This document shows, piece by piece, positions 8,907-57,192 of a DNA stretch of 64,000 nucleotides. This stretch comes from an uncultured virus (IMG/VR IMGVR_UViG_3300047094_002559) (Duplodnaviria > Heunggongvirae > Uroviricota > Caudoviricetes). How positions within the stretch are numbered: the stretch's first letter is position 1; every line of letters starts with the position of its first letter. The notes under the pieces were generated by a model. It saw nothing but the letters and a program-made list of their open reading frames with translations, made no database searches and was not told where the DNA came from. The stretch lies in the IMG/VR virus record IMGVR_UViG_3300047094_002559. One strand, given 5' to 3'. The position numbers and the translations under genes were made by a program.

Positions 8907-10718
8907 TTAGTCGGGTAGTTTGAGGGTCTTCCCCCGCAGGTTGCTGGGGCTGACCCACTCCTTCTTACCCGTGCGCCGGTTGACGAGCAACTGATAAATT
9001 CGACCGTCAGATCCGACACGTGCGCCGTGCGCCAGTCGGACGTCGATGCCGGCTTTTTCAGACTCCGGCCCCGCGATCGGATCCACGAAGCCGAACTGCG
9101 TGGCGCTGACTGCCGTCATGTCGTCCGTGATGGCATTCGGGTCGCCGATGCCGCCGGGTCCCATCTTGGTGATGCGACGCTTCTGCTCGAGGATGTGCAT
9201 CGGGTTGATCTCCTCCAGCGCTGTGACCAGCGGATTGGACTTGAGGTAGCCCATCGTGTATCCGCCGAACGCGTCCGGGCCCACAGGGTCCAGGGTGCGC
9301 ATGCGGCTCAGCCGTCCCATCATCGCGCGCAGGGCATGTCCGTGGTCGAGCTTGATGCGCTCGGCCATCAGGCGGTCCACCGTGTGGACGCGGTCGTTCG
9401 GCAGGCTGTCGCGGTCGTCCGTCTCAGCCAGGCCGCGGTTCACGGCCAGCAGCTTCTCGGTGGCAGCCAGCAGGCCGTCGATGCCCACCGGTGCATACTT
9501 CTCGTGCTCGTCGTCGTCCGCCAGGTAGCGGTGATGCGCCATGGGCGACTTCATCGGCGCTTTCGGCATCGGCTTCGGGACACCGATCGGGACGTAGGTC
9601 GATGCCGCCTTCGCAAACGCAGTCGGGCCATAATCCTGCGGATTGGCAAGCTGGTCCTCGTAAATGGGCACCTCACCCATCAATTGCCGAAGGGCGCGCG
9701 CCGTCACATTGCCGTGCAGCGCGTTATCCCGATGGGTCAGGTTGAACCGATCCGCCACCCACTTCCGACGATCGTCAGGCGTCTTGTCGAAATTCCTGAT
9801 GAAGCCCTGCCGGGTGTTGAACGTCATGACGTCATCATCCACCATCTCCACCCGATGCAGCGGCTCATCCTCCTCTGGCTCGATCTCGGGATGTTCCAGC
9901 CCCTGCGCGACGAGGTAGGCGCGCAATTTCTCCAGTGCGACATCAGCGTGCTTGTCCTCCACCGATGCGTGCACATCCCCGGTGTGGGCGTCATTCACGG
10001 CCAGGCCCGAAGCTTGCAGCTCCTTGAGGATCGCGTGCCAGTTCTTCCGCAGCCCCACGCCCTGCAGCTTGTCGCCGGACAGCCGGAAAGTCTTCGCCAT
10101 CTTTTCCATCGGAAACTCCAGATACTTCGGATCAATCTTCCCCGTCGGATGGATGATCTGGACGTGCGGCACGTCGCCGGCATACCGGCCGTGCCCGGGC
10201 TCGAAGTGCTTCCACAGTTCCTTCGGATTCTTCGCGCGCTCGATGAGCTGCTTGATCTCATCGATCTTCAGGTCGTGATGCCGCGCGGCAAGGATCGGCT
10301 CCTTCTCTTCGTCCGACATGGCGTCCCACTCCTCGTCGCTCAGATGTCCCCACAGCGACTTCCCTGGGGCCAGCTCGACGCCGTGCAGGCGCGTGTCTGG
10401 CGCGTCCCGCAGCAGGGCTTCGAGATCGATCCGCAGCGGCACAGACTTCCGCTGGTTCATCGGGTGCGTCGCGTCGCCCTTGATGCGGTCCGTGTCGGGC
10501 TGGCCGAAGAATGCGGACGGGCCGGCGAACGACGCCTTCCACGGTTCCTCCTTCAGCTTCTTCTCCCGGAATGCCAGCCACTCGTCGGCCGCCTTGCCGG
10601 GGCGCGCGAGTTCCAGCAGGTGCCGGTTCTCCGGGCGCGCAAGGATGTCGCCGGACAGCAGCCCGTGCTCACGGACGGAGTCCAGCGTTTCTTCGGGGAT
10701 GTAGGACAGGAGTTTCAT
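8907..10718 (-). CDS. Multidomain protein: unknown N-domain + acylphosphatase-like domain + RNA polymerase beta subunit fragment (fork-loop/Rif region)
   Basis: EEINPMHILEQKRRITKMGPGG...FGFVDPIAGPESEKAG parallels RpoB DQxNPLSELTHKRRLSALGPGG...YGRICPIETPEGPNIG; LSGDKLQGVGLRK...GLAVND matches acylphosphatase GxVQGVGFR...GWVxN. Confidence 0.8.
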   Translation of the reverse strand: MKLLSYIPEETLDSVREHGLLSGDILARPENRHLLELARPGKAADEWLAFREKKLKEEPWKASFAGPSAFFGQPDTDRIKGDATHPMNQRKSVPLRIDLEALLRDAPDTRLHGVELAPGKSLWGHLSDEEWDAMSDEEKEPILAARHHDLKIDEIKQLIERAKNPKELWKHFEPGHGRYAGDVPHVQIIHPTGKIDPKYLEFPMEKMAKTFRLSGDKLQGVGLRKNWHAILKELQASGLAVNDAHTGDVHASVEDKHADVALEKLRAYLVAQGLEHPEIEPEEDEPLHRVEMVDDDVMTFNTRQGFIRNFDKTPDDRRKWVADRFNLTHRDNALHGNVTARALRQLMGEVPIYEDQLANPQDYGPTAFAKAASTYVPIGVPKPMPKAPMKSPMAHHRYLADDDEHEKYAPVGIDGLLAATEKLLAVNRGLAETDDRDSLPNDRVHTVDRLMAERIKLDHGHALRAMMGRLSRMRTLDPVGPDAFGGYTMGYLKSNPLVTALEEINPMHILEQKRRITKMGPGGIGDPNAITDDMTAVSATQFGFVDPIAGPESEKAGIDVRLAHGARVGSDGRIYQLLVNRRTGKKEWVSPSNLRGKTLKLPD

Positions 10719-12789: not shown

Positions 12790-15438
12790 TTATCGGTTCA
12801 GGTGTTTCTCCAGGAAGTCGTGCTTCGCATCGTCCGCCTCGTTCGTGTAGTCCAGCACCAGCTCCAGGTCCGCATTCGCGCGCGCAGACTTCTCGTGCAG
12901 TCGGTCAAACGACTCCTTCGGAATTTCGTCAGGACGACGCAAGATCTGCAGCGGCTTGCGCGTGGTGGACCGCACCCATTCCAGGATGTTCTTGTCGTGC
13001 ATCTTTCGCATGCGCGACATCACCGTGACCGGCTCGGCGCCGCACTGCTCCGCCAGCGCATCCACGTCGAACTGCCACCAGCCGTCCTTCTCCACGCCGA
13101 CGTCGAAGATCGCGTCGCGCGTTTCCGATTCCTTCTTCGTCATGGTCGGAATGACTTCCTCAAACCGGATGCGATGCTGCCGCGCGGCGTCCGCGTCGTG
13201 CGCGAAGATTCGCTCACCCAGGCAGAACGACATGATGGCCTGGGTCGCGAACGGATCGATCGAAGCCCGCTTGCATATCTCATCGCGCGACGCCGTGATC
13301 GCCCCGTTGGCGCCCTCACGCATCTGACTTGCCGCCTTGAAGAACGCCTTGATGTCCTCCGGCGTTGGATTGCCGCAGCGGATGAAGTGCTTCCGCGTGC
13401 GAATGCCCTCAGGAGTCGGGATGATCGTGCAGTAGGAGTCGAGACCGTCTCTGCCTGCGCGACCCGCTTCTTGCGCCAAAGCCACCAGAGTGCCCGGGAT
13501 GTCGAAGTGCACCACGTGTCTGATATTGCTTTTGTCCACGCCCATGCCGAACGCGTTCGTGGCCACGATGACTGCCTCGGGGTCCGCCATGAACTTGTCC
13601 TGGTTGAACCGACGATCCGGCTGCAGCATTCCGCCGTGGTAGAAGTAGACCGGGCGGTTGGTGTAGCGGCTGATGGCCGCCGCGTATTCCTCCACCCTCT
13701 TACGCGTGGAAGCGTAGACGATGGTCGGCCCCTCGCAGTTCGCAGCCACCCAGGGTGCGGCCTCCGACATGCGGTCCAGGAACAGGGACGCCAGATGCAG
13801 ATTCGTGCGGCGCGGGTAGTGGTAGATCAGCTTGGCCTTGAGGATGCCCAGACCGCTCCGCACCTCCGCCTCAGCCTCCTCGGACAGCGTCGCAGAGAAC
13901 GCCGCCACCACTTTCGGCTGCACCTTCTGGATGAACTCCCCGGCGAACTTGTAGCCGGGACGGAAGGTGTCCGCCCAGTCATGGAACGTGTGACAGTTTC
14001 CTATCACGACAACTTTTCCGCTGCGTCGAACCACGATGCACCCGGTGGGTACAGTCACGCAGTAGACCATTCCGTCGTAGTCCGTCACGCGCTTCCTGAA
14101 TTCCTGCGTGTCTACGGTTGGCTCGCCCAGGCGAATGAACAACCGGTGTACATCGCTGAATGCGTCCGACCTGTGATCCACCTGCAATGTTTTTCGGGCG
14201 CGCAGTCCAGCGCGTATGCAGACTTCCTGGAAGTAGTCTGTGTTGTCCTCCACCGTGCTGCTGTAGTAACCCAGCGAATCGCTGACGTCGCTACCATCCC
14301 AGGCGATGCATTCGTCGACCAGCGCGCGACAGGCATCAGCCGACAGATCGTTGTAATCAAGCACCTCGCGCATGATCTTGGAAAGCCCGGGCACCCCCGT
14401 CACGATGAACCTTCGACGGCTACCATCTGATCGGTCTTTTACCTCGTTGAAGGCATAACCGCCGTCTTTCATGATCTGCAGGAATCGCTTGATCTTTCGC
14501 TGCTTCACGAACGAAAACGCAGCAGACGATTTGCTGTGGGCGTTTCCGTCCGCCTGAAAAGCAGTCTGAAGACGCTCCCAAGGTGTCAATGCGGAGCGTC
14601 CAGTGCCGGCGCCGGCTGCGGCTCTCATACGCCACATGTAGCTGAACTTGGCGTCCGCGGCAGTTCGCTTTCGCCAGCTGCCGTCAGCCCTGTAAACCAG
14701 CAGATCGTGATTCGGAGTTACCGAGATGTCTATGCCGCTGGTCGATTCGATGTGGATCATCTCTCCTTTGTGCCGCCTACGTATGACGCGCGACGGAACG
14801 ACCAGCGTCATCTCGTGCGTGTCCGGATCCACCTGAGCCACCTGATCTGCATCGTCCAGTGCATCGAATCTCACGAATCCACGACCCGTGAGAATCTCAA
14901 CGTCAGGCGCAAAGCACTCGTCCATCGCCACAAAATCAGGCGGGAACTGCGACACCACGTTCGACCACTCCGGATTCGAGAAGCGCTCCGGGCTGACCAG
15001 CATGAACTGCAGCGTGCCCGACGCCCAGTCCCGCAGCACCGAGGCGTTGTGTCCGTCCGTCTCCTGGCTGGAGATGGACGCCGCAGCAAGCCCCTTGCGC
15101 TGCATGGACGTGGCCTGGTCACGCATGAGCGCGATCAGCGGGTAGATGACGATGGTGCGCCAGCCCATGCACAGCGTCGGCACAACGAAGCATGCACTTT
15201 TCCCAGACCCGGTTGGCAGGATCGTGATCGTGTCCCGCTGCGCCATGATGGACTTCACCGATCGGTCCTGCCCCTCCCGGAGCGTGCTGAACCGCAGGCT
15301 GTTCAGGACCGCCGGCATCTTCTTCATTCCCTGCATCAGCGCCTGTATTTCGGCGGTGGTTGTTACGGCTTTCCGCGCTTCGATCGGAGGACTTTCAGTT
15401 TCGGATTCTTCGGGTTTCGGTTTGGTCAGAGTCGACAT
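12790..15438 (-). CDS. recQ: RecQ-family SF2 helicase containing an intein
   Basis: LREGQ, LPTGSGKS, PLIALMRDQ, VSPER, DE/CH, SAT, YHGGM, VATNAFGMGVDK and QEAGRAGRDG motifs. Confidence 0.92.
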   Translation of the reverse strand: MSTLTKPKPEESETESPPIEARKAVTTTAEIQALMQGMKKMPAVLNSLRFSTLREGQDRSVKSIMAQRDTITILPTGSGKSACFVVPTLCMGWRTIVIYPLIALMRDQATSMQRKGLAAASISSQETDGHNASVLRDWASGTLQFMLVSPERFSNPEWSNVVSQFPPDFVAMDECFAPDVEILTGRGFVRFDALDDADQVAQVDPDTHEMTLVVPSRVIRRRHKGEMIHIESTSGIDISVTPNHDLLVYRADGSWRKRTAADAKFSYMWRMRAAAGAGTGRSALTPWERLQTAFQADGNAHSKSSAAFSFVKQRKIKRFLQIMKDGGYAFNEVKDRSDGSRRRFIVTGVPGLSKIMREVLDYNDLSADACRALVDECIAWDGSDVSDSLGYYSSTVEDNTDYFQEVCIRAGLRARKTLQVDHRSDAFSDVHRLFIRLGEPTVDTQEFRKRVTDYDGMVYCVTVPTGCIVVRRSGKVVVIGNCHTFHDWADTFRPGYKFAGEFIQKVQPKVVAAFSATLSEEAEAEVRSGLGILKAKLIYHYPRRTNLHLASLFLDRMSEAAPWVAANCEGPTIVYASTRKRVEEYAAAISRYTNRPVYFYHGGMLQPDRRFNQDKFMADPEAVIVATNAFGMGVDKSNIRHVVHFDIPGTLVALAQEAGRAGRDGLDSYCTIIPTPEGIRTRKHFIRCGNPTPEDIKAFFKAASQMREGANGAITASRDEICKRASIDPFATQAIMSFCLGERIFAHDADAARQHRIRFEEVIPTMTKKESETRDAIFDVGVEKDGWWQFDVDALAEQCGAEPVTVMSRMRKMHDKNILEWVRSTTRKPLQILRRPDEIPKESFDRLHEKSARANADLELVLDYTNEADDAKHDFLEKHLNR
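13996..14916 (-). mobile_element. Intein (307 aa) in RecQ motif II, with a probable degenerate LAGLIDADG domain
   Basis: MDE|CFAPDVEILT...SVTPNHDL...VYCVTVPTG...VIGN|CH; removal restores DECH; AFQADG and CIAWDG are LAGLIDADG-like blocks. Confidence 0.9.
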
Positions 15439-32969: not shown

Positions 32970-33125
32970 AGTGTCGCATTGTGTTGATTCGTGATCGCCC
33001 CGCAGCAGCCAAGCCGGGGGCGACGTTGTATGGTTAGACTCTCCGCGGAAGCTCGTCAACTGCTTATTTCAAAGTCTTGAACGAATTTTTATTGACCGGG
33101 AAGTGTGCGCAACGCTGCAGCACGT

Positions 33126-33385
33126 ACAAAGCCAAAGCCAATCTCGAGATTGCTAGTGCTTTGTACGTGCTTTGATTTGATAATCACCCGGGTGTCAACG
33201 ACTTACGTCAAATCCAATCTGGAAAAGGCCTTTTCTATATAACGCGCGCGCGTTTTATTCCGGACCTCTTATATAAGAAGCGTCTTTTCCAGATTGGATT
33301 TGACGTAAGTGCCTGATGTTGTTTGTTTAATCAAATCAAAGCACGTACAAAGCACTAGCAATCTCGAGATTGGCTTTGGCTTTGT
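33126..33385. repeat. 260-bp nested inverted repeat in an AT-rich non-coding gap (candidate origin or telomere-like site)
   Basis: Perfect 56-bp arms 33126-33181/33330-33385 and perfect 27-bp inner arms 33201-33227/33284-33310 share one symmetry centre. Confidence 0.95.
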
Positions 33386-33466
33386 TTTCGAGATTGGCTT
33401 TGTATTCTGCCCGGTTTTTCCAGATGTGCTATTTTAGCAGACTAGACTATCGGGACAACTCGACGA

Positions 33467-33769
33467 TTACGGCAGCCGCATCAAGATTCGCTCACGCCGT
33501 TCCATGTACACGACGCCGATGACGTAGCTGCCGCCTTCCTCGATTGCGATGCGCCACCCCTCGTCGGGATTCCCGGGGATGCCTTGTGCACGCAGCAACG
33601 CGTCCGCTTCCTCGTAGGTGCAGAGTCTCAGCTCGAGTCGTCGGTATCGTTTGAAGATTCGGTAGTAGAGGCTTTTCAACGCTCGGAGCAGCAGCTGAAA
33701 ACCAGACGCCGGTCTGGTTTTCAGTCTCCTCGATTTGAGTGCGTCATGCTGTGGTGTTTTCTGTATCAT
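33467..33769 (-). CDS. Hypothetical protein (100 aa)
   Basis: ATG at 33769 (MIQKTPQH). Confidence 0.55.
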   Translation of the reverse strand: MIQKTPQHDALKSRRLKTRPASGFQLLLRALKSLYYRIFKRYRRLELRLCTYEEADALLRAQGIPGNPDEGWRIAIEEGGSYVIGVVYMERRERILMRLP

Positions 33770-35216: not shown

Positions 35217-35624
35217 TTATTTGCTTCCTCCCCAGATTCCGTCCCCTGCTAGCCTTCTATCCCGGTCTGCGTGCACTTCGTGTAAGTGCAACTTCCTCCG
35301 TATCTCGTCGCGCTCCGCGAACTTCGATGAGTAAGGGCGCTTGCCTTTGAGCGCGACAGAGAGCTGCCGGTTGAGTTCGTCGAGCGCGACATCGCCCTCA
35401 CGTTCAGCGGTCTGCACGTAATCCAGCATCCCGTCCACCTGCGGCAGGATTGCCAAGATCAGCTTGTCCCGGGTGCGCCAGTCGTCCGGATCCATTCCGA
35501 GCGCAAGCATCGCAGTGACGGCGATCGCGCTCGAGGCAGAGACGCCTTCTTCGTTGTCGAGTCGCCACACGCTACCTGACTTGCCTCGCCGAACTGCGAA
35601 GGGATTGGTTTTTGGTTTGCTCAT
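35217..35624 (-). CDS. Hypothetical protein (MSKPKTNPF...)
   Basis: ATGA overlap with the helicase stop. Confidence 0.65.
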   Translation of the reverse strand: MSKPKTNPFAVRRGKSGSVWRLDNEEGVSASSAIAVTAMLALGMDPDDWRTRDKLILAILPQVDGMLDYVQTAEREGDVALDELNRQLSVALKGKRPYSSKFAERDEIRRKLHLHEVHADRDRRLAGDGIWGGSK

Positions 35625-38092
35625 GCTGTCTTTGCTGTGAATCGCTGGAACCGGAACTCCCGGCGCACTTGAATGTTGTTTCCCTCGCCCTTTCTGGCCT
35701 TGCACAGGCAGAACAGCTGGTCATCGAGGAACATGCTGCGAGGCATGTCCGCCTTGCCGCGCTCTGCCGCCACGATGCCGGCCTTGTCGATCGTGTTGGT
35801 GACGCCGATCACGGCGACCATGTTCTTGCCGAGCCCCTTGCTGATGCCTATGTCGTTGATCGTCAGTATGCGCTTGAGCTGTGCATCGTTGACCGCCTGG
35901 GCCAGGAGCAGCGTCGGGATTCCGGAGCGGTCCGCAAACTTCACGCCGCTGTTGGCTGACTGCTCCCAGAGCATTGCCCGCTCCGAGGTGCCGCCGTGCT
36001 TGCCGCCCGGCGCGGCGTCCGCCACCGAGCCCAGCCAGTCCAGACACACCCAGGTCGGGTCGTGTCCCATCTTGGACTTGTAGATCATGCACTCCCGCTC
36101 CAGCAGCATCTGCAGGTTCATCCCGTCATCCGGGGAGACCTTGTGGATGCGCGTGCGCTCGAGGAACTTTGCCAGCACCTCGTCCACCTTCTTGATGCGA
36201 TACATGGACGCGGGGTTGCTCATGACCGCCTGCCGTATCTGCGCGACGTTCTCGCAGTCCTGCACGACGTTGATCGGGATACCGGCCGCGTTGGACACCG
36301 TGCGCACGGCATACTCACGCGGGTGCAGCTCCGTGGTCACAATCAACGGCCAGCCGTGGTTGTGGCTGGCCTCCCACCAGGCGCACTGCCCCGCGGCGAT
36401 CGAGTTGTGCGTAATGGAGAAATCACCCAGCAGGTAGCGACGATCCGGTCCTTCCACGCTGAAACCGTAGTAGTCACCTTCCCCTAGACTTTCCACGGAG
36501 AACCCATTGGTCAGCGGATTTTTGATCTGCCGCCTGGTCGGCGGCGTCACCCTTTTTACAGGCAACACCACGTCGCCGTAAGGCTGTATGAGCGCGCGCC
36601 AGCTGGTGCAGTCGACATCAAACCCACGCGTTACGCGAGGACTGGACACCGTGACCGAGTATCCCAGCGAACGACCCAGAAACGCCACAGCGTTCACTAG
36701 GTCTTCCTGCGTGTTTGAAAACTCCCAGCCGGACTTCGCGACGCACCCGTCGGAATCAAGCAACCCAGCCAGCAGTGCTGCCCTCTCGTCGATGGAGGCG
36801 ACCAGAAAATGAGCCGGAACATGCTTATTACGGATCAGTCCCAATTTGCGCAGAGCCGCCTTGAAACCGCCAGTGATGGAAATCTTTTCGCAACGATCCG
36901 GGTCGTCCGGACGGCGCACGCATGTCCACCCGGCGGATTCGACTATTTCCCGAAGCATCCGCTCGCATCCTGGCTTGCTGATTTCTGGGTGCCACTTGCA
37001 CCCGTCGCCTAACCAAAATCCCAGCAGGTAAGGTGGGATTTCCAACGGAGACGCCTGCTGCGGAAACACCACGATCCCGGCTTGCACCCACTTGGTGACA
37101 TGCCGAAACTTTTTGCTGCTCGCCAGATAGTCGTCCAGCGGGACATCAATCAGTGTTCCACTGCGCGCAGCTACGCCGCGAGAGGACCTCACCGTCCTCT
37201 TTCCTATGTTGGTGACAGCCAGAGTCAGCGTGTGGCTGCGGTTGACAACGACAGGTTCGGCCGACCGCAGAGGGGTGATCCGGAACATCTCTTCTCTTCC
37301 GCGGACAAGCTCGGTGACTTTTCTCGGGGTCGAGTCGGGTCCCATGAGCAGGTCGCCTACGACGACATCTTCGACTGCCTTAGTAATACCGTCATACATC
37401 AGTATTCGAGTCCCCTTGCTGTAGCACTTGCCGCCGCCTGTGCCCCCGAAGAGCAGGTAGCACTCGTTGGGGCCCCATCCGCCGTTCAGGCACTCGTCCA
37501 GCCCTGTGATGCCTGTGGGGCGCCTCAGCGTGCGTTCGAGGATCTGACTGCCGGCGAACGCCTGCATGGGGTCCTCCGCGCCTTCTGCGACCGCCTGGGC
37601 CGCGGCGGAGAGGGACCGCTGCATCTCGACGATCTGCCCGGGTACATCGGGAATCACGTCCCGCCGGAGCACCAACGCGGCTTTCTTCGCGCGGATGCTG
37701 CCATACCAGGCCTCGAAGTAGGGCCGGATGCAGTAGTGCTGCTCGCAGAACGATGGGTCCTGCAGTTCCTTGATTAACTTCACAGCGATCGCGACGATCT
37801 CGTCATCGGAGCTTTCCGTCTTCGCGGCGACCTCCAGGTAGGTGCGCAGGAACTCGTAGGTCGGCGGGCACGGCACCTGGTGCCCGATGACGTGCATGAT
37901 CTTCACGGCGCTGGTCAGGGCCGCCACGATCAGCGAGTGCTCTTCCCGCTCGAAGTCATCATCCGTCACCGGGACGCTGAGCATCGCTGCGCGCATCAGC
38001 GGATCGTGCATCATCGCGTGCAGCAGGTAGAACGCGTAGGTGTCGCGGTTGTCCGCGAGCCACTGCTTCATCTCATCTGTGATCTGGGCCAT
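35621..38092 (-). CDS. DnaB-like (SF4) replicative helicase containing an intein
   Basis: PTGITGLDECLNGG, GGTGGGK/S, VTTEL, CLDWL, LLAQ and KARKG motifs. Confidence 0.85.
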   Translation of the reverse strand: MAQITDEMKQWLADNRDTYAFYLLHAMMHDPLMRAAMLSVPVTDDDFEREEHSLIVAALTSAVKIMHVIGHQVPCPPTYEFLRTYLEVAAKTESSDDEIVAIAVKLIKELQDPSFCEQHYCIRPYFEAWYGSIRAKKAALVLRRDVIPDVPGQIVEMQRSLSAAAQAVAEGAEDPMQAFAGSQILERTLRRPTGITGLDECLNGGWGPNECYLLFGGTGGGKCYSKGTRILMYDGITKAVEDVVVGDLLMGPDSTPRKVTELVRGREEMFRITPLRSAEPVVVNRSHTLTLAVTNIGKRTVRSSRGVAARSGTLIDVPLDDYLASSKKFRHVTKWVQAGIVVFPQQASPLEIPPYLLGFWLGDGCKWHPEISKPGCERMLREIVESAGWTCVRRPDDPDRCEKISITGGFKAALRKLGLIRNKHVPAHFLVASIDERAALLAGLLDSDGCVAKSGWEFSNTQEDLVNAVAFLGRSLGYSVTVSSPRVTRGFDVDCTSWRALIQPYGDVVLPVKRVTPPTRRQIKNPLTNGFSVESLGEGDYYGFSVEGPDRRYLLGDFSITHNSIAAGQCAWWEASHNHGWPLIVTTELHPREYAVRTVSNAAGIPINVVQDCENVAQIRQAVMSNPASMYRIKKVDEVLAKFLERTRIHKVSPDDGMNLQMLLERECMIYKSKMGHDPTWVCLDWLGSVADAAPGGKHGGTSERAMLWEQSANSGVKFADRSGIPTLLLAQAVNDAQLKRILTINDIGISKGLGKNMVAVIGVTNTIDKAGIVAAERGKADMPRSMFLDDQLFCLCKARKGEGNNIQVRREFRFQRFTAKTA
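36404..37426 (-). mobile_element. Intein (341 aa) with a LAGLIDADG homing endonuclease, in the helicase P-loop
   Basis: GGGK|CYSKGT...YLLGFWLGDG...LLAGLLDSDG...YYGFSV...ITHN|S. Confidence 0.95.
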
Positions 38093-52297: not shown

Positions 52298-53857
52298 TCC
52301 ACGGGCCTCGGGGCCGCTGAGCTGTTCAAGCTCAGCGTGGTTCCAAATTACCGCTCCATCTACCTGACCCCGCTGAGGGAGCAGAGCAAGACGATGGCGG
52401 ACAAGCTGCTCAACATGCAGCGCGGCTCGATCTGTCCCCCGGCGTATTTCACCTCCCGCGGCTACCGCAACAACATGTATTACAAGGAGTCGCCACAGGG
52501 AGGCTCGCTGAAGCTGATGCACATCCTGACGGACCCGACAAAGATCCGCGGCGAAAGCGTGCCCACCATCATCATCGATGAGAGCCAGGATTTCGACGCC
52601 GAGCATCTGCCGGAAATCGAGCAGGTTCAAAAAGCCTTTCCCGACGATCGTCTGACCGTGTTCGCCGGCACGTCGAAGCATCTCGATACCTGCCTGGAGG
52701 CTCAATACAACCTGGGCAGTCGCGGCGTGTGGCACGTGTATTGTCCGTGTCCGAAGAAGTTCCACTCGCTTGGCGACGCAGAGCTCGTGCCGAAAATGAT
52801 GGCCTCCGTGGAAGGCCTGCGCTGCCCGGACAACAAGCACATCAAGCTCAACCCCCTGATGGGGGAGTTCGTCCACGAAGACCGGTCTCGGCTGCGCGTC
52901 AACATGCCCAGCTTCCATCTGCCGCAGGTGATCGTGCCGGAGTATGCCCTCGGAAAGGGCTTCATGGACATCTGGAAGGACTACAAAAAGTATCCTCTCA
53001 AGAAGTTCCTGCAGGAGGTCTGGGGTATCGCAGTCGAGTCCGGGCTGACCGAACTCAACGAGGAAGATTTGAAGCGGTGCTGCACCACCAAGACGTTCGC
53101 GCAGACGCAGGAGGACTGCCTCGCCGGACGTTCGCGCTACATGTATCTGTTCTCCGGCGTGGACTGGGGCGGCTCGGACTGGGAGCCGGCGTATCGCAGC
53201 AAACTCTCCTACACGGTGCATACGATTTACGGGATGCGCGGCGACGGGAAGATGGACCTAGTCTACGCCTTCCGCTACTCCGGCATGAACTACCGCGAGA
53301 TCGCACAGAACATCGTCGAGCAGCACAACAAGTATAAGAGCTTCGCGATGGGCACCGACAACGGCGGCGGCGCTTACTACAACGCCTACATGCGGGACTG
53401 CGGACGCATCCGGACGGAATCGATCATTCACTTTCAGTATACCGACACCAAGCTGATGCTGGACCGCATCAAGCACCCGGAGGCGCACATCATGTCGCTG
53501 CACCGGTCGGACTCCCTCTCGGCTCTGCTTGCCGACATCAAGGACCAGAACATCTCATGGCCACGCTGGGACGAGTCCAGCCCATTCGTGTTGGACTGCC
53601 TGAACATCCGGAGAAACATAGCCGAAGCGCCGTCCGGTCGCACCATCATGCGCTACATCAAGGCTGGGGCGCGGTCGGATGACTTCCTGCAGTCTACCAA
53701 CTACGCGTGCATGATGAAGCGCATCGTGCGCAACGAATCGCTCATCCCGAACAAGCAGATCATGGACGAGCTGCGGACGTTGTTCGGTCTGTCCATCCCG
53801 ACCGATCTGGCGTCGCGGATGGGCGACATGTTCGAGGGCGGCTACGTGGGCGGGTAA
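51911..53857 (+). CDS. terL: C-intein + terminase large subunit C-terminal part (ATPase and nuclease)
   Basis: ...FDLRV...YFTSGIASHN|STG; RGES, IIIDESQD, GTSK, zinc-like CxC..C, SGVDWGG and DDFLQS; start may be GTG 51941. Confidence 0.88.
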   Translation: MRCAYDAKHRVLLETEIAEERSVEHLDLKVAAPGGAFVRVTHVCRTVPMPVWRILTRDFALECAGKHLVRRLSGYGQVDQCLPGDFILTQDGWQPVTACAPVGEEREMFDLRVEGEDHAYFTSGIASHNSTGLGAAELFKLSVVPNYRSIYLTPLREQSKTMADKLLNMQRGSICPPAYFTSRGYRNNMYYKESPQGGSLKLMHILTDPTKIRGESVPTIIIDESQDFDAEHLPEIEQVQKAFPDDRLTVFAGTSKHLDTCLEAQYNLGSRGVWHVYCPCPKKFHSLGDAELVPKMMASVEGLRCPDNKHIKLNPLMGEFVHEDRSRLRVNMPSFHLPQVIVPEYALGKGFMDIWKDYKKYPLKKFLQEVWGIAVESGLTELNEEDLKRCCTTKTFAQTQEDCLAGRSRYMYLFSGVDWGGSDWEPAYRSKLSYTVHTIYGMRGDGKMDLVYAFRYSGMNYREIAQNIVEQHNKYKSFAMGTDNGGGAYYNAYMRDCGRIRTESIIHFQYTDTKLMLDRIKHPEAHIMSLHRSDSLSALLADIKDQNISWPRWDESSPFVLDCLNIRRNIAEAPSGRTIMRYIKAGARSDDFLQSTNYACMMKRIVRNESLIPNKQIMDELRTLFGLSIPTDLASRMGDMFEGGYVGG

Positions 53858-53867
53858 TTTCTGTAGT

Positions 53868-53909
53868 AGGTAAAGAAGACGCCGGCGCGGCCCCACCTGG
53901 GGCCGCGCC
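53868..53909 (-). terminator. Hairpin + TTTACCT terminator-like element
   Basis: GGCGCGGCCCC/GGGGCCGCGCC stem, then GGCGTCTTCTTTACCT; between convergent genes. Confidence 0.75.
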
Positions 53910-53922
53910 ATGCGCAGACGAC

Positions 53923-54405
53923 TTAGATGTTTTTTCGTTCTGCCGCCTCGGCGGCGATCATCGCCGACATCAGTGGGGCGGCGTCAGTCGGCAGCACTTT
54001 CTTGATCGCCATCGGACGACACATGCCGTGTGTGTATGCCGACGCCTCCATCATGTCAGCTGCGCTGGGCATGCAATCGTTAGCGCGCGCAGACTTTGCG
54101 GTTTCCCCGCAGCACCCACGGCCGCACGGGCCGCAGTAGGTGCCGGAGGCGTGGCTCCTGCAGCTGCAGCCGCAGCGGCACTCGCAGAAGCTCGGGAGCG
54201 GCGGCGTGTAGAGACACACCCACTCGCCCAGCGCCTCGCGGCGGCCCACTTCAATCTGCGCCTCTTCCTCCGTCGCGTAGCGGTCGCCGACTAGCGCACG
54301 ACTCTCCCCGGACCACACCCCGTATGGCAGCGGGGGTGTGATGCTAACGATATTGAGGCCTTCGCGCACAACAGTCAGCCCGTCACTTGTGATAGTGGTT
54401 TTCAT
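53923..54405 (-). CDS. Cys-rich hypothetical protein (160 aa)
   Basis: CECRCGC...CGPCGRGCC; inside a promoter/terminator cassette. Confidence 0.6.
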   Translation of the reverse strand: MKTTITSDGLTVVREGLNIVSITPPLPYGVWSGESRALVGDRYATEEEAQIEVGRREALGEWVCLYTPPLPSFCECRCGCSCRSHASGTYCGPCGRGCCGETAKSARANDCMPSAADMMEASAYTHGMCRPMAIKKVLPTDAAPLMSAMIAAEAAERKNI

Positions 54406-54600
54406 AACGACAACCCCCTTAGCCCGTCCTTCAACAGGCGTTGGCGTCCAGACTCGGGGGAAGTCCAGAAGGCTGACTCAGCATGACGCCCCGGAAGTGG
54501 GGAACCCGGGCGCCGTTCGAAGCAGCGCCCGGGTCTTGTCGTCATTGCCTGTCGGCGTGCACACACACAGCCACCAGACGAATCTGGTAACCATGTATAT
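54404..54600 (-). ncRNA. Candidate structured 5' leader RNA (switch-like)
   Basis: 18-bp G-U-rich hairpin with UUCG loop at 54561-54600; 12-bp hairpin at 54504-54534; 10-bp pairing over the start codon. Confidence 0.55.
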
Positions 54601-54601
54601 A

Positions 54602-54636
54602 CAAAGTATTATGACACGGAAGGGTCTGGAATTGCA
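54602..54636 (-). promoter_or_regulatory. Conserved promoter motif
   Basis: TGCAAT-N13-GTGTCATAATACTTTG. Confidence 0.75.
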
Positions 54637-54648
54637 CGGGGTCCAACC

Positions 54649-54695
54649 AGGTAAAGGAAGTGCCGCCGCGGCCCCCGAAGGAGCCGCGGCGGCAC
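54649..54695 (-). terminator. Hairpin + TTTACCT terminator-like element
   Basis: GTGCCGCCGCGGC/GCCGCGGCGGCAC stem, then TTCCTTTACCT. Confidence 0.75.
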
Positions 54696-54701
54696 GTTGC
54701 G

Positions 54702-55070
54702 TTACAGGGCGGGGTCGGCGCCAGCAAGGAGGCTGCCGGTGGTGCGCAGGCGCTCGACGAGTTCCCGCAGTCTGGCAGCGACGCCAGCCACGAACGGGAT
54801 CTCGTAGTCGAGGTCCGTTGGTCCGCTAAGGACCGCCGGCAGCCACCCGCCGTCATCGTCGTCGGGCTTGGTCGACGCTTCGAGCCAGAGAACGTCGGCG
54901 AGGTTTTTGGAAGTGAACTCCGAGAGGAGTTCCTTCCGGTGTTTCTCCAGCGCAGCGATAACTGACCAGCCCTTGCGGGCTGCGTCATCACTGGCCATGG
55001 TTCCGAGCTGTTTGACCAGCTCACACAGTTCAGCCGCTTTTGGCGGCATCATGGTATTGGTGGTGTCCAT
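54702..55070 (-). CDS. Hypothetical protein (122 aa), probably leaderless
   Basis: ATG 55070 lies 7 nt after the CATAAG box. Confidence 0.7.
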   Translation of the reverse strand: MDTTNTMMPPKAAELCELVKQLGTMASDDAARKGWSVIAALEKHRKELLSEFTSKNLADVLWLEASTKPDDDDGGWLPAVLSGPTDLDYEIPFVAGVAARLRELVERLRTTGSLLAGADPAL

Positions 55071-55071
55071 A

Positions 55072-55105
55072 CAAAGTCTTATGACACCGCGCGGTCTCGA
55101 ATTGC
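55072..55105 (-). promoter_or_regulatory. Conserved promoter motif
   Basis: GCAAT-N13-GTGTCATAAGACTTTG. Confidence 0.75.
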
Positions 55106-55108
55106 GGC

Positions 55109-55153
55109 AGGTAAAGAAGACGAGCCGGCGCGGCCTCGTGGGCCGCGCCGGCT
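55109..55153 (-). terminator. Hairpin + TTTACCT terminator-like element (a similar hairpin + TTTACG precedes it at 55158-55195)
   Basis: AGCCGGCGCGGCC/GGCCGCGCCGGCT stem, then CGTCTTCTTTACCT. Confidence 0.75.
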
Positions 55154-55440
55154 GTTTCGTAAAGTGAACCGGGCGGGACCTCAGCCCCGCCCGGTGTATC
55201 GAGGCGATACGGTATCGCAGCACGACGCTGCGATTGATGAACACCAACCGCTCGAAGAGGCGCAGGACTCGCCTGCAGCTTTTCGAGCGGGGTGCGAAAC
55301 GAAAAAGAACGGACACCGTATCCGTCAGCCAGCGGCGCATCTGTTGCTGTAGATGATCCCACGCATGACGCAGGATGAACTTCACAACAGATGCGCGGGC
55401 TGACGAGGCGTGATGTGTTTAGACGGCGAACACCACTCAG
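55154..55440 (-). ncRNA. Candidate structured non-coding RNA (~290 nt, ~330 nt with terminator)
   Basis: Six stems of 8-12 bp between a promoter motif and a terminator; no credible ORF start. Confidence 0.65.
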
Positions 55441-55474
55441 CAAAGTATTATGACGCAAGATGACGCCAAATTGC
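55441..55474 (-). promoter_or_regulatory. Conserved promoter motif
   Basis: GCAAT-N13-GCGTCATAATACTTTG. Confidence 0.75.
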
Positions 55475-55475
55475 G

Positions 55476-56105
55476 TCAAGCATCCGAGTCGTCTTTGAAC
55501 TCGGCCGCGACCGCTGCATACTCCTCATCCATCGCGCGCAGCATGTCGGTCGGGACTCCCAGCGCACGCATCTGGTCGAGCACCATCAGGTATGCCCGCT
55601 CGACCTCTGTCGCATTCTGATCCTGATCCTCTTGCTCGTATTCGAGCGCATCCTGGATGTATCGCCGCACCGCATTCGAGAATGTCGGCGGATCGACGGA
55701 GTCGCTCGCCATCCCCATTTCGAGCACCGCCCACATGATCTCCGTAGCGTCCAGGTCATCGAAGATCAGCGTGTCGCCGAGGTCACCGTCGAACAAAGCG
55801 GTAGCGACCGCCACGAACACATCCGCGTCATACCAGAATTGTCCGTTCGTCAGCCCAGTGATGATCGCGTTGAGTTTGTTCTCCCCCTCCTCGGTCACCC
55901 AGGTTCCATACCGGGTAAACAGGTCTGACCACATCTCAGATGGATCCATCTGCTCCACGCCTGCCTCAGCATCCCCCATGACCGCGGGGCCGAAGGCGTG
56001 GAGCGCAATGACAAACAGGACGATACCAGACGTGTCAGCATCTCCGAGGGCCTTCCTTATCTCGCCCTCGTCCAGTTTGACAGATGCCGTCATCAAGCTG
56101 CTCAT
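55476..56105 (-). CDS. Acidic hypothetical (probable virion) protein (209 aa)
   Basis: Co-transcribed with the K-x-A-rich gene upstream. Confidence 0.7.
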   Translation of the reverse strand: MSSLMTASVKLDEGEIRKALGDADTSGIVLFVIALHAFGPAVMGDAEAGVEQMDPSEMWSDLFTRYGTWVTEEGENKLNAIITGLTNGQFWYDADVFVAVATALFDGDLGDTLIFDDLDATEIMWAVLEMGMASDSVDPPTFSNAVRRYIQDALEYEQEDQDQNATEVERAYLMVLDQMRALGVPTDMLRAMDEEYAAVAAEFKDDSDA

Positions 56106-56124
56106 AGTGCGTCAGGTGTTGGTT

Positions 56125-57192
56125 TCAGGCGGCGGCAGCGACGGTCAAACGTAGTAGAGTTTTTTGGTCGCTCTCCGGCCACTGCTCGACAGCGAGACTG
56201 AGGTCGCGCGCATCCCCGGTGTCCCGCAGACGTCTGAATGTATCCGCAGCAGATTTGCTGAGCCGATACTCCGCATCCATCGCATCGATCGAGCGGACTT
56301 CTTGCAGCGGCAGTAAAACGTCACGAACCAGGACGTGCTCCTTCGCCGCCTTTTCCGCATCAGAGGCGAGCGCGCCGCAGAACACGATGTCGAACGGCGT
56401 CGGCACCAGCGATGAGTGACGGTAGCTGTTGGAGACGCCAGCGACGAAATCGATGGTCGCAATTTTTTCCATGGCAGCGTCCGGCTCGGCCTCCAGGTCG
56501 GCGAGGGCCGCCTGGTAGTCCGCCTCCACCTGCTCCCGGATTGTCGCGTCCTTGCAAAACTGCGACCGTCCCTGAATTCTTCGTGCGGCCTCCTCTGCGT
56601 CCGGGAAGCGCTCTACGCCGTGCCGCATGATGAGATCCGGCAGTTCGTGCGACACGTTATGGTCGTGCGCGGCTTTCACGATCTCTCTGGCCGCAGCCAC
56701 GAACATCGGAAGCATGATGCGATTCTCCGCTGCCATCTTCGACAGCTCGAACGATGAATCGCGAACGTCGACCGCGTCGTTCAGCGGCAGCAGCTTGAAA
56801 ACTTCGCCACCGAATTCGTCATTGATGGCGTAGCGGCCCTCCGTCAATTCGTCGAGCGAGGCGCTCTTCTCGAACTCGCCCGCGAACAGTTCAGCGTAGG
56901 GCAGGATGTCCTGCTCGATGCCATAGTGGGCGCACGCTGACTTGACGCGTTCCAGCGTGGCGTCGTCGTAATTATCCAGATGCGCGAATACGTTGAGTGC
57001 TGAGTGAAAGGCTGCAGACTTTGTGCAGATTGGCAGCAGCCGGCGCTTCGTGTCGGCGAAGGCTGCCGATGCTTTCTTCTCGAATTCCGCCGCCTCCGGC
57101 ATGGGTTCGCTCGCGACCCAATCGGGAAACGGATGATGCATCTCTGCCCGATACAAAAACTTGGGATTGTTGAGGGTGTTGAAGTCTTGCAT
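56125..57192 (-). CDS. Putative head/virion protein with K-x-A motifs (MQDFNTLNN...)
   Basis: EKKAS, TKSAA, EKSAS, SKMAA and SKSAA; ATG at 57192. Confidence 0.65.
   Translation of the reverse strand: MQDFNTLNNPKFLYRAEMHHPFPDWVASEPMPEAAEFEKKASAAFADTKRRLLPICTKSAAFHSALNVFAHLDNYDDATLERVKSACAHYGIEQDILPYAELFAGEFEKSASLDELTEGRYAINDEFGGEVFKLLPLNDAVDVRDSSFELSKMAAENRIMLPMFVAAAREIVKAAHDHNVSHELPDLIMRHGVERFPDAEEAARRIQGRSQFCKDATIREQVEADYQAALADLEAEPDAAMEKIATIDFVAGVSNSYRHSSLVPTPFDIVFCGALASDAEKAAKEHVLVRDVLLPLQEVRSIDAMDAEYRLSKSAADTFRRLRDTGDARDLSLAVEQWPESDQKTLLRLTVAAAA

What the first reader, a model, noticed from the sequence alone, without database searches (positions are those of the whole stretch)
55109..55440. 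Candidate novel ~300-nt structured ncRNA with its own promoter and double terminator
Seen: a long interrupted hairpin (55323-55330/55398-55405 enclosing 55335-55346/55385-55396), then a multibranch domain closed by 55206-55213/55315-55322 containing hairpins 55248-55256/55282-55290 and 55214-55221/55227-55234 plus a U-rich single strand, then two terminator-like hairpins. UGGUGUUC occurs twice. It does not look like tRNA, tmRNA or a CRISPR array. Inference: a phage ncRNA, possibly an RNAP or protein decoy, an anti-defence RNA, or the partner of the RAMP-like protein.
Basis: partly seen in the sequence, partly recalled or inferred. Interest (0 to 1): 0.8.

Follow-up and report, generated by a model that had tools for sequence, protein, structure and literature searches.

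The report
Structured ORF-less phage RNA cassette
An uncultured large phage carries a strongly folded stretch of about 280 bases with no gene in it, sitting between a conserved promoter-like motif and terminator hairpins; it is probably a non-coding RNA of unknown job.

Summary
On the minus strand, 55441-55109 is a promoter-like motif, an ORF-poor, strongly folded stretch and two terminator hairpins. Fold z is -8.5 for the whole and -7.2 without the terminators; helices H2 and H4 score -7.2 and -5.3. No Rfam family matches, nor tmRNA, tRNA or a conserved ORF.

Only two sequence variants exist in the data. The 210-nt core differs at 3 sites, against 24 of 269 four-fold sites in the two upstream genes. 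All 3 changes keep minus-strand pairing.

The promoter motif occurs three times in tandem, and the second "terminator" belongs to a repeated stem-loop-plus-promoter cassette. That resembles the PeSL cassettes of T4-type phages, which flank swappable cargo. In distant relatives the same promoter drives a tmRNA, a protein or other ORF-less structured units.

Best reading (about 0.5): a clade-specific non-coding RNA of about 280 nt, perhaps also about 140 nt. Its function is unknown. Nothing supports an RNAP decoy, a CRISPR mimic or a RAMP partner. Expression is untested.

The parts
55441..55474 (-). P3: promoter-like motif GCAATT-N16-CATAAT-ACTTTG; transcript start inferred at about 55437-55440
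   Evidence: One of 3 matches in the window against 0.17 expected and 3 in the 98-kb record. Kept downstream of the 209-aa gene homologue in 13 of 15 loci by pattern and, as a GCAAGT variant, in L020 by eye. L019 ends before it. Not called by the sigma-70 consensus scan.
55410..55436 (-). H1: weak 5' hairpin (GUGGUGU/ACAUCAC)
   Evidence: -6.2 kcal/mol, z 0.2. Its 3' arm is rewritten in the L005 variant, which still folds a 5' hairpin in another register. Relatives also have a hairpin at the inferred 5' end.
55323..55405 (-). H2: long interrupted hairpin, about 35 pairs
   Evidence: -48 kcal/mol, z -7.2, 0 of 200 shuffles as good. The one difference from L005 turns U.G into C-G.
55296..55326 (-). 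H3: 8-pair hairpin plus U-rich tract CUUUUUCGUUUCG; possible early stop at about 140 nt
   Evidence: Terminator-like in the scans of the window and of L005. Weak on its own: -8.1 kcal/mol, z -1.6.
55241..55295 (-). H4: second long hairpin
   Evidence: -32.8 kcal/mol, z -5.3. Two differences from L005, A-U to G.U and U.G to C-G, both keep the pair.
55196..55234 (-). H5 and H6: small hairpins, with an alternative GCGAUA/UAUCGC pairing and a long-range pairing to 55315-55322
   Evidence: -14.7 kcal/mol, z -2.8. The alternative closing helix appears.
55160..55195 (-). T1: the unit's own terminator hairpin plus tail UUCACUUU
   Evidence: -26.4 kcal/mol, z -4.3. Not called by the scan in the window; called in L005, where the tail is UCAUUUUUUA. 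L005 has one extra base in each arm, which keeps the stem.
55113..55153 (-). T2: GC-rich stem-loop plus CGUCUUCUUU; first half of a repeated stem-loop/promoter cassette
   Evidence: Terminator-like; -31.5 kcal/mol, z -6.3. It aligns with the stem-loops at 54660-54695 and 53868-53909.
55072..55105 (-). P2: second copy of the promoter motif, 7 bases before the ATG of the next gene
   Evidence: sequence.
54702..55070 (-). 122-aa gene of unknown family, apparently leaderless (context)
   Evidence: ORF and sequence. No Pfam or PHROG match. 81% identical to the L009/L010 homologue.
54602..54695 (-). Stem-loop plus P1: third copy of the composite cassette
55476..56105 (-). 209-aa acidic protein gene; its stop codon lies inside P3 (context and synteny anchor)
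   Evidence: No Pfam or PHROG match.

Best explanation
This is a separate, non-coding transcription unit on the minus strand of a roughly 184-kb uncultured phage.

Inferred, not shown: transcription starts just after the conserved motif P3, at about 55437-55440. The RNA folds into two stable imperfect helices, H2 and H4, joined by a U-rich linker. Some transcripts may stop at the weak hairpin H3, giving about 140 nt. The rest stop at T1, giving about 280 nt. T2 belongs to the next cassette and acts as a backstop.

The unit is one cargo slot in a short array of repeated stem-loop-plus-promoter cassettes. The array lies between a conserved gene and the terminase gene, in a region that differs between related phages.

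I think the RNA itself is the product and is kept by selection. The most likely mode of action is a stable trans-acting RNA that binds protein through its long imperfect duplexes and U-rich linker, as a sponge or decoy. That last step is a guess. I give it about 0.2 within an overall 0.5 that this is a functional non-coding RNA.
For: - Promoter motif: 3 matches in the window against 0.17 expected. It is kept downstream of the 209-aa gene homologue in all 14 relatives' loci that have sequence there, down to 47% protein identity. Between the two variants its spacer differs at several positions while both conserved blocks are kept.
- Orientation: U-tracts follow H3, T1 and T2 on the minus strand only. 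The minus-strand fold has 8-10 G.U pairs against 3-6 for the plus strand; in the 5' domain it is 8 against 1.
- Stability: z -7.2 for the core, and -7.2 and -5.3 for H2 and H4. The region is in the top ~1% of windows.
- No coding signal: no minus-strand ORF has a ribosome-binding site by eye. There are no meaningful Pfam or PHROG matches: best E 0.26 and 0.0077, the latter on a plus-strand ORF. The 3 core differences give 2 of 3 and 3 of 3 amino-acid changes in the two long minus frames. Two 1-base insertions in T1 shift the frame.
- Constraint: the core 55196-55405 differs at 3 of 210 sites from the other variant. Four-fold degenerate sites of the two upstream genes differ at 24 of 269 (Fisher p 2.4e-4). 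All 3 core changes, one more in T1 and the paired insertions in T1 keep minus-strand pairing.
- Not a leader for the next gene: that gene starts 7 bases after its own promoter motif and has no Shine-Dalgarno sequence.
- Analogous units: relatives have ORF-poor structured units in the same slot. L023 is 380 nt with z -6.7; L020 is 173 nt with z -4.95.
Against: - No transcript evidence. The one RNA run holds only a 172-nt contig inside the upstream gene.
- Only two sequence variants exist, so covariation cannot be tested. Four structure-keeping transitions are expected by chance about one time in four (my estimate).
- The low divergence of the core could come from a recent cassette exchange rather than selection. 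The flanks are mosaic: the promoter spacer, the 3' arm of H1, a 106-108-nt insertion after T1, and 72-90% identity further downstream. The core rate of 1.4% is not clearly below the whole-gene rate of 3.2%.
- Distant relatives show no detectable homology. A covariance model of the 5' domain scores L020 at 7.9 bits, E 1.8. Local alignments give z -1.0 to 1.25.
- The plus strand folds as well as the minus strand.
- Other nearby non-coding stretches are equally structured; the P1 leader has z -6.65. Structure alone is therefore not special at this locus.
- The sigma-70 scan does not call the promoter. The phage has an RNA polymerase beta-like fragment, so which polymerase reads the motif is unknown.
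Confidence: 0.5

Rival explanations
1. Filler of a mobile cassette. The slot between two stem-loop/promoter cassettes holds hairpin-rich sequence left by cargo loss or by insertion of palindromic pieces. It may be transcribed, but the RNA has no job of its own.
For: - The locus is a cassette array in a variable region. It has three promoter copies and three stem-loop copies.
- The cargo differs between relatives: tmRNA, a 157-179-aa protein, small proteins, or ORF-less units.
- The other variant carries an extra 106-108-nt hairpin-forming insertion right after T1.
- The complete close relative has lost, or never had, the tmRNA and tRNAs found at this locus in a distant complete relative.
- There is no homology to the units of distant relatives.
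Against: - The core is far less diverged than four-fold sites next door: 3 of 210 against 24 of 269.
- Every change keeps the pairing.
- The promoter blocks are kept while the spacer changed.
- There is no remnant of the relatives' protein: best tblastn hit in the window E 0.072, and it lies elsewhere.
- There is no remnant of tmRNA.
Confidence: 0.25
2. A cis-acting element. The stretch is the 3' untranslated end and terminator block of the upstream operon, and/or an attenuator (H3, T1) that times read-through from P3. It also insulates the next cassette.
For: - The stop codon of the 209-aa gene lies inside P3, so upstream transcripts must run into this stretch and end at T1 or T2.
- H3 plus its U-tract looks like a weak terminator.
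- A U-tract ending in UUUCG follows a hairpin at 135-175 nt in the window, L020 and L023 (read by eye).
- In L024 the same promoter is followed after about 60 nt by a tmRNA, so it can act as the head of a longer transcript.
- Early-terminated leader RNAs are common in virulent phages: 29 candidates in six Pseudomonas phages (PMC10914365, passages read).
Against: - Nothing translatable follows within the unit. The next gene has its own promoter copy 7 bases before its ATG and no ribosome-binding site for read-through transcripts.
- Simple termination or insulation would not need H2 and H4 to be kept.
Confidence: 0.15
3. A DNA-level element. The inverted repeats are protein-binding or recombination sites, or an origin, and act as double-stranded or cruciform DNA.
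For: - The plus strand folds as well as the minus strand (z -9.1).
- H2 holds a perfect 12-bp inverted repeat.
- The authors of the PeSL work suggest that the stem-loops of such cassettes may be recombination targets (PMC2839356, passages read).
Against: - G.U pairs are more frequent on the minus strand.
- In both variants all changed positions pair on the minus-strand RNA, whereas the plus strand or DNA would have A.C mismatches.
- GC skew shows no turn here.
- The element occurs once per genome.
Confidence: 0.05
4. A small protein gene missed by ORF rules.
For: Open frames exist on the minus strand: GTG at 55385, giving 76 aa in the L005 variant, and TTG at 55479, giving 149 aa.
Against: - By eye there is no ribosome-binding site.
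- The products are arginine-rich, as off-frame translations of GC-rich DNA usually are.
- The three core differences are mostly or all non-synonymous in these frames.
- The frame end differs between variants because of indels in T1.
- There is no meaningful family match.
Confidence: 0.03

Closest known systems
PeSL cassettes (promoter-early stem-loop) of T4-type phages (PMC2839356, passages read; PMC4122927, abstract read)
   Same: - A repeated composite motif joins a GC-rich terminator stem-loop to a strong promoter.
- The copies cluster in a variable region next to conserved genes.
- They flank small cargo that is swapped between close relatives.
   Different: - This phage is not a recognisable T4-type phage. 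Its terminase is 22-23% identical to the nearest cultured phages.
- The promoter motif does not fit the sigma-70 consensus scan.
- The motif sequence is unrelated.
- The cargo of this slot has no ORF, whereas PeSLs are described flanking ORFans.
- Promoter, terminator and recombination activity are untested here.
ncRNA candidates of virulent phages found by transcript-end mapping (phiKZ, PAK_P3 and others; PMC10914365, passages read)
   Same: Short to mid-size phage RNAs, defined by a start site and an early or intrinsic terminator, with no ORF preceded by a Shine-Dalgarno sequence, conserved only among close relatives, and of unknown function.
   Different: Those were seen as transcripts, and most are 5'-leader or 3'-end derived. 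Here expression is only inferred, and no gene follows within the unit.
Phage tmRNA and tRNA loci
   Same: The same conserved promoter motif, downstream of the same 209-aa gene, precedes a tmRNA in 3 distant relatives (L007, L023, L024). tRNAs follow in L007. The slot can therefore hold stable RNA genes.
   Different: The window RNA has no tRNA-like domain and no tag reading frame, and it matches no tmRNA model. The complete close relative G001 has no tmRNA or tRNA at all.
6S RNA (RNA polymerase decoy)
   Same: A long imperfect hairpin.
   Different: H2 is about 83 nt and has no large central bubble. No 6S-type family matches at E up to 10. That Rfam holds 6S models is recalled, not checked.

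Membership tests
Any Rfam 15 family | Score at or above the family's gathering threshold | tested here: not met
   0 matches in the whole window. In the permissive search of 54350-55520, only terminator-shaped matches far below threshold appeared (best 26.8 bits against a threshold of 60).
tmRNA | tRNA-like acceptor/T-arm domain and a tag reading frame | tested here: not met
   ARAGORN finds none in the window. RF00023 finds none in the 98-kb record or in the complete relative G001. No tmRNA-clan match at E up to 10. The same tools find tmRNA in L007, L023 and L024.
6S RNA / RNA polymerase decoy | Match to 6S models; closed hairpin with a large central bubble that mimics an open promoter | tested here: not met
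   No 6S-type match at E up to 10. The internal loops of H2 are 2-4 nt.
RNA anti-CRISPR / solitary CRISPR repeat mimic | Close likeness to a CRISPR repeat of a host array | tested here: not met
   No CRISPR-DR family at E up to 10. A degenerate pattern of the H2 apical hairpin found 93 loci in 185,579 species genomes: 91 hold a single match, one holds overlapping matches on the two strands (a palindrome), and one holds two matches 583 bases apart. None is an array. Limit: the pattern is strict and the host is unknown.
PeSL-type composite terminator-promoter cassette | Repeated composite motif: a GC-rich stem-loop next to a conserved promoter | tested here: met
   Three stem-loop copies, two joined to promoter copies, plus P3.
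PeSL-type composite terminator-promoter cassette | Sits in a variable region and flanks cargo that differs between close relatives | tested here: met
   Identity to the L005 variant is 92-100% in most 50-base bins upstream (lowest 84%). It falls to 72-90% across 54700-54999 and below about 70% from 54550 down to 53900. Cargo differs among relatives.
PeSL-type composite terminator-promoter cassette | Sigma-70-like promoter of a T4-type phage, with shown promoter/terminator activity and mini-circle formation | tested here: not met
   The sigma-70 scan calls none of the three motifs. The phage is only remotely related to cultured phages. Activity is not testable with these tools. So it works like a PeSL array but is not filed as a member.
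Intrinsic (Rho-independent) terminator | GC-rich hairpin directly followed by a U-tract | tested here: met
   T2 and H3 are called in the window. T1 is called in the L005 variant but not in the window, where the tail is UUCACUUU.
Phage-encoded non-coding RNA (generic kind) | A discrete transcript is detected | not testable with these tools
   The one RNA run covers only 55707-55878 in the upstream gene.

The most novel reading that the evidence does not exclude
The RNA is a new class of stable phage RNA. It has taken over the slot behind a family-wide conserved stable-RNA promoter, the slot that holds a tmRNA in related phages. It works in trans on the host, for example as a decoy for a double-strand-RNA or U-tract binding protein or for a defence sensor. 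The two-domain layout is 5' hairpin, long helix, U-tract ending in UUUCG, then a second domain. On this reading, that layout, which by eye the ORF-less units of L020 and L023 share, is a fast-evolving but homologous family.
Probability: 0.12. Interest if true: 0.7.

Novelty: new member of a known kind. Interest (0 to 1): 0.4.

Why it matters
If the RNA is real, it adds a large, well-folded RNA of no known family to the short list of non-coding RNAs of virulent phages, in an uncultured lineage far from any studied phage.

It would also show that terminator-promoter cassette arrays, described so far for small orphan genes in T4-type phages, can carry RNA cargo and exist outside that group.

The conserved promoter motif drives tmRNA, proteins or ORF-less RNAs in different relatives. 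That gives a handle for finding more such cargo in metagenomes.

Without a transcript, a host or a phenotype, it remains a candidate.

Tried and rejected
- **RNA-seq.** One metatranscriptome run shared 6% of the sampled words. Laid on 54300-56200, it gave a single 172-nt contig at 55707-55878 and nothing on the candidate. This is uninformative either way.
- **Cultured relatives.** blastn of 54300-56200 and tblastn of the 209-aa protein against 50,697 phage records found no match.
- **More relatives.**
  - Viral contigs gave 4 loci and metagenome contigs gave 11.
  - Genome contigs gave none by protein.
  - Two DNA-pattern scans of viral contigs, with 8 and 19 hits, added only chance matches beyond the same three relatives.
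- **Homology to the units of distant relatives.**
  - The covariance model R1 of the 5' domain finds only the two close variants. L020 scores 7.9 bits, E 1.8; L007 has a 14.3-bit match, E 0.033, on generic hairpins.
  - R1 finds a single copy in G001 and G002 and none in G003.
  - Local alignments are no better than shuffles.
- **Remnant of the relatives' cargo.** tblastn with the 179-aa and 157-aa proteins found nothing in the candidate region. Nothing tmRNA-like was found.
- **tmRNA start in L020.** By eye I read a tmRNA start at the cut end of L020. Rfam does not support it, so I dropped it.
- **CRISPR-repeat mimic.** Rejected.
- **Antisense control of the neighbouring leaderless mRNA through UGGUGUUC.** Duplex energy against shuffled targets gave z -0.64 (window) and -1.54 (L005). 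The site ranks 3622 of 12792 windows. Rejected.
- **Replication origin at this site.** GC skew shows no turn.
- **Tandem or direct repeats inside the RNA.** None besides the promoter copies.
- **Earlier notes of this scan.** Nothing by place or by sequence.

Full report
**What the window is.** The window is the first 64 kb of a 98-kb IMG/VR virus record estimated to be 50% complete. A 184-kb record with terminal repeats, G001, is identical at this locus. The genome is about 60% GC. It encodes DNA polymerase A, several helicases, a primase, a UvsX-like recombinase, SbcCD, a large terminase, tail parts and an RNA polymerase beta-like fragment. It is far from cultured phages: DNA and the 209-aa protein find no match, and the terminase is 22-23% identical to Salmonella and Vibrio phages.

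**Layout.** All local genes are on the minus strand. Reading down in coordinates:
- a 209-aa gene (56105-55476);
- motif P3 (55474-55441);
- the candidate (55440 to about 55113);
- motif P2 (55105-55072), 7 bases before the ATG of a 122-aa gene (55070-54702);
- a stem-loop (54695-54660), then P1 (54635-54602);
- a 195-nt leader, then a 160-aa gene (54405-53923);
- a third stem-loop (53909-53868);
- the end of the convergent terminase gene.

**The observation.**
- Fold z-scores are -8.5 for the whole, -7.2 without the terminators, -7.2 for H2, -5.3 for H4, -4.3 for T1 and -6.3 for T2.
- H1 (z 0.2) and H3 (z -1.6) are weak.
- The region ranks 6th to 12th of 1063 windows for GC-corrected stability.
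- The plus strand folds as well (z -9.1), so energy alone does not give the strand.
- The twice-occurring UGGUGUUC is about what chance gives.

**Strand and transcription signals.**
- The motif GCAATT-N16-CATAA(T/G)-ACTTTG occurs 3 times in the window against 0.17 expected, all on the minus strand. It occurs nowhere else in the 98 kb.
- U-tracts follow H3, T1 and T2 on the minus strand only.
- The scan calls T2 and H3 in the window and also T1 in the other variant.
- G.U pairs number 8-10 in the minus fold and 3-6 in the plus fold.
- The sigma-70 consensus scan calls none of the three motifs. Because the phage has an RNA polymerase beta-like fragment, I leave open which polymerase reads them.

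**Known families.**
- Rfam gives nothing at gathering level. At E up to 10 it gives only terminator-shaped sub-threshold matches.
- ARAGORN finds no tRNA or tmRNA.
- The long ORFs that overlap the region have no meaningful Pfam or PHROG match.
- By eye they have no ribosome-binding site.
- The differences between variants are mostly non-synonymous in them.
- Their ends shift with indels in T1.

**Relatives.** The 209-aa protein found 4 viral and 11 metagenome loci, at 47-100% identity. Only two variants of the candidate exist: window = L004, and L005 = L006 = L016 = L017 = L018.
- Between the two, the core 55196-55405 differs at 3 of 210 sites. Four-fold degenerate sites of the two upstream genes differ at 24 of 269 (Fisher p 2.4e-4). 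Codon positions 1 and 2 differ at 1.7-2.1%.
- The 3 core changes are U.G to C-G, A-U to G.U and U.G to C-G. T1 has C-G to U.G plus one inserted base in each arm. All keep minus-strand pairing, whereas on the plus strand they would switch between pairs and A.C mismatches.
- With four transitions this could happen by chance about one time in four, so it is a hint only.
- The flanks are mosaic: the P3 spacer and the 3' arm of H1 are rewritten, and L005 has 106-108 extra bases between T1 and T2. A recent cassette exchange could therefore also explain the near-identical core.

**What sits behind the same promoter elsewhere.** The motif and the first transcribed bases (TTGCTAAG or TTGCTGAG) are kept after the 209-aa gene in every locus that has sequence there. 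The cargo differs between relatives.
- L007 has a 179-aa protein, then tmRNA and tRNAs.
- L022 has a 157-aa homologue of that protein.
- L024 has a tmRNA about 60 nt after the motif.
- L023 has a 380-nt ORF-poor unit with its own terminator (z -6.7), then a tmRNA about 590 nt from the motif.
- L020 has an ORF-poor structured stretch (z -4.95 for the first 173 nt) before the contig ends.
- L026 has small proteins.

By eye, the window, L020 and L023 share a layout: 5' hairpin, long helix, U-tract ending in UUUCG, then a second domain. Neither a covariance model nor local alignment detects homology. G001, the complete close relative, has no tmRNA or tRNA. The complete distant relative G003 has one tmRNA and 8 tRNA matches, 7 of them over the family cut-off.

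**The cassette array.** T2 aligns with the stem-loops at 54660-54695 and 53868-53909, including the following C(G/A)(T/C)CTTC(T/C)TTTACCT. Two of the three are joined to a promoter copy. Identity to the L005 variant is 92-100% in most 50-base bins upstream (lowest 84%). It drops to 72-90% in the 122-aa gene and to alignment noise beyond it.

This matches in kind the PeSL cassettes of T4-type phages: composite strong promoter plus terminator stem-loop, clustered in hyperplastic regions, flanking orphan genes and mediating their exchange (PMC2839356, passages read; PMC4122927, abstract read). P3 and T1 belong to the unit, and T2 belongs to the next cassette.

**Reading.** I put about 0.5 on a functional, clade-specific non-coding RNA of about 280 nt, perhaps also about 140 nt. 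The other odds are:
- 0.25 that it is transcribed filler of a cassette slot;
- 0.15 that it is a cis-acting 3' end, attenuator or insulator;
- 0.05 that it is a DNA-level element;
- 0.03 that it is a small protein gene.

A protein-sponge mode of action is my best guess and rests only on anatomy. The closest known kind is the set of ncRNA candidates mapped in virulent Pseudomonas phages (PMC10914365, passages read).

**What the evidence cannot tell.** The tests that came back negative are listed under Tried and rejected. With only two variants and no transcript data, the evidence cannot decide between selection and a recent cassette exchange.

Noticed in passing
window 33080-33470: A very large near-perfect inverted repeat in an AT-rich (42% GC) gap between genes. 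It folds to -189.9 kcal/mol with z -17.3, by far the strongest structure in the window. It could be a replication origin or another RNA; I did not pursue it.
   Followed up: partly
window 54406-54601 (minus strand): The 195-nt leader between P1 and the 160-aa gene is also strongly folded (z -6.65). It starts with a 19-pair hairpin at the inferred 5' end. Unlike the candidate's core, it is poorly conserved in the L005 variant.
   Followed up: partly
window 55064-55158, 54594-54700, 53850-53915: Three copies of a GC-rich stem-loop followed by CTTCTTTACCT, two of them joined to a copy of the promoter motif. This is a PeSL-like cassette array outside the T4-type phages.
   Followed up: yes
L007 5371-6261; L023 1864-2284; L024 3708-4153: Distant relatives carry a tmRNA (and tRNAs in L007) just downstream of the same conserved promoter motif. 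The complete close relative G001 has neither tmRNA nor tRNA.
   Followed up: yes
window 8910-10718 (minus strand): A 603-aa protein matches RNA_pol_Rpb2_3 (E 3.7e-6, above the Pfam cut-off). The phage may therefore carry its own multisubunit RNA polymerase, which bears on who reads the promoter motif.
   Followed up: no
window 12793-15438 and 35624-38092 (minus strand): Intein-type insertions in two replication proteins: Intein_splicing in a DEAD-box helicase, and Hom_end_hint plus LAGLIDADG in a DnaB-like protein. The start of the terminase ORF (51911 onward) also looks Hint-like by eye, but Pfam did not call it.
   Followed up: no
window 55070 (minus strand): The 122-aa gene's ATG lies 7 bases after the CATAAG of P2 with no Shine-Dalgarno sequence, so its mRNA is probably leaderless.
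   Followed up: no
L056, L062, L065, L069, L070, L085, L090, L093 and others: The hairpin pattern used for the CRISPR test hits many separate contigs of a few Thermoanaerobaculia and Acidobacteriota genomes, once per locus. That suggests a dispersed repeat in those bacteria, unrelated to this phage.
   Followed up: no
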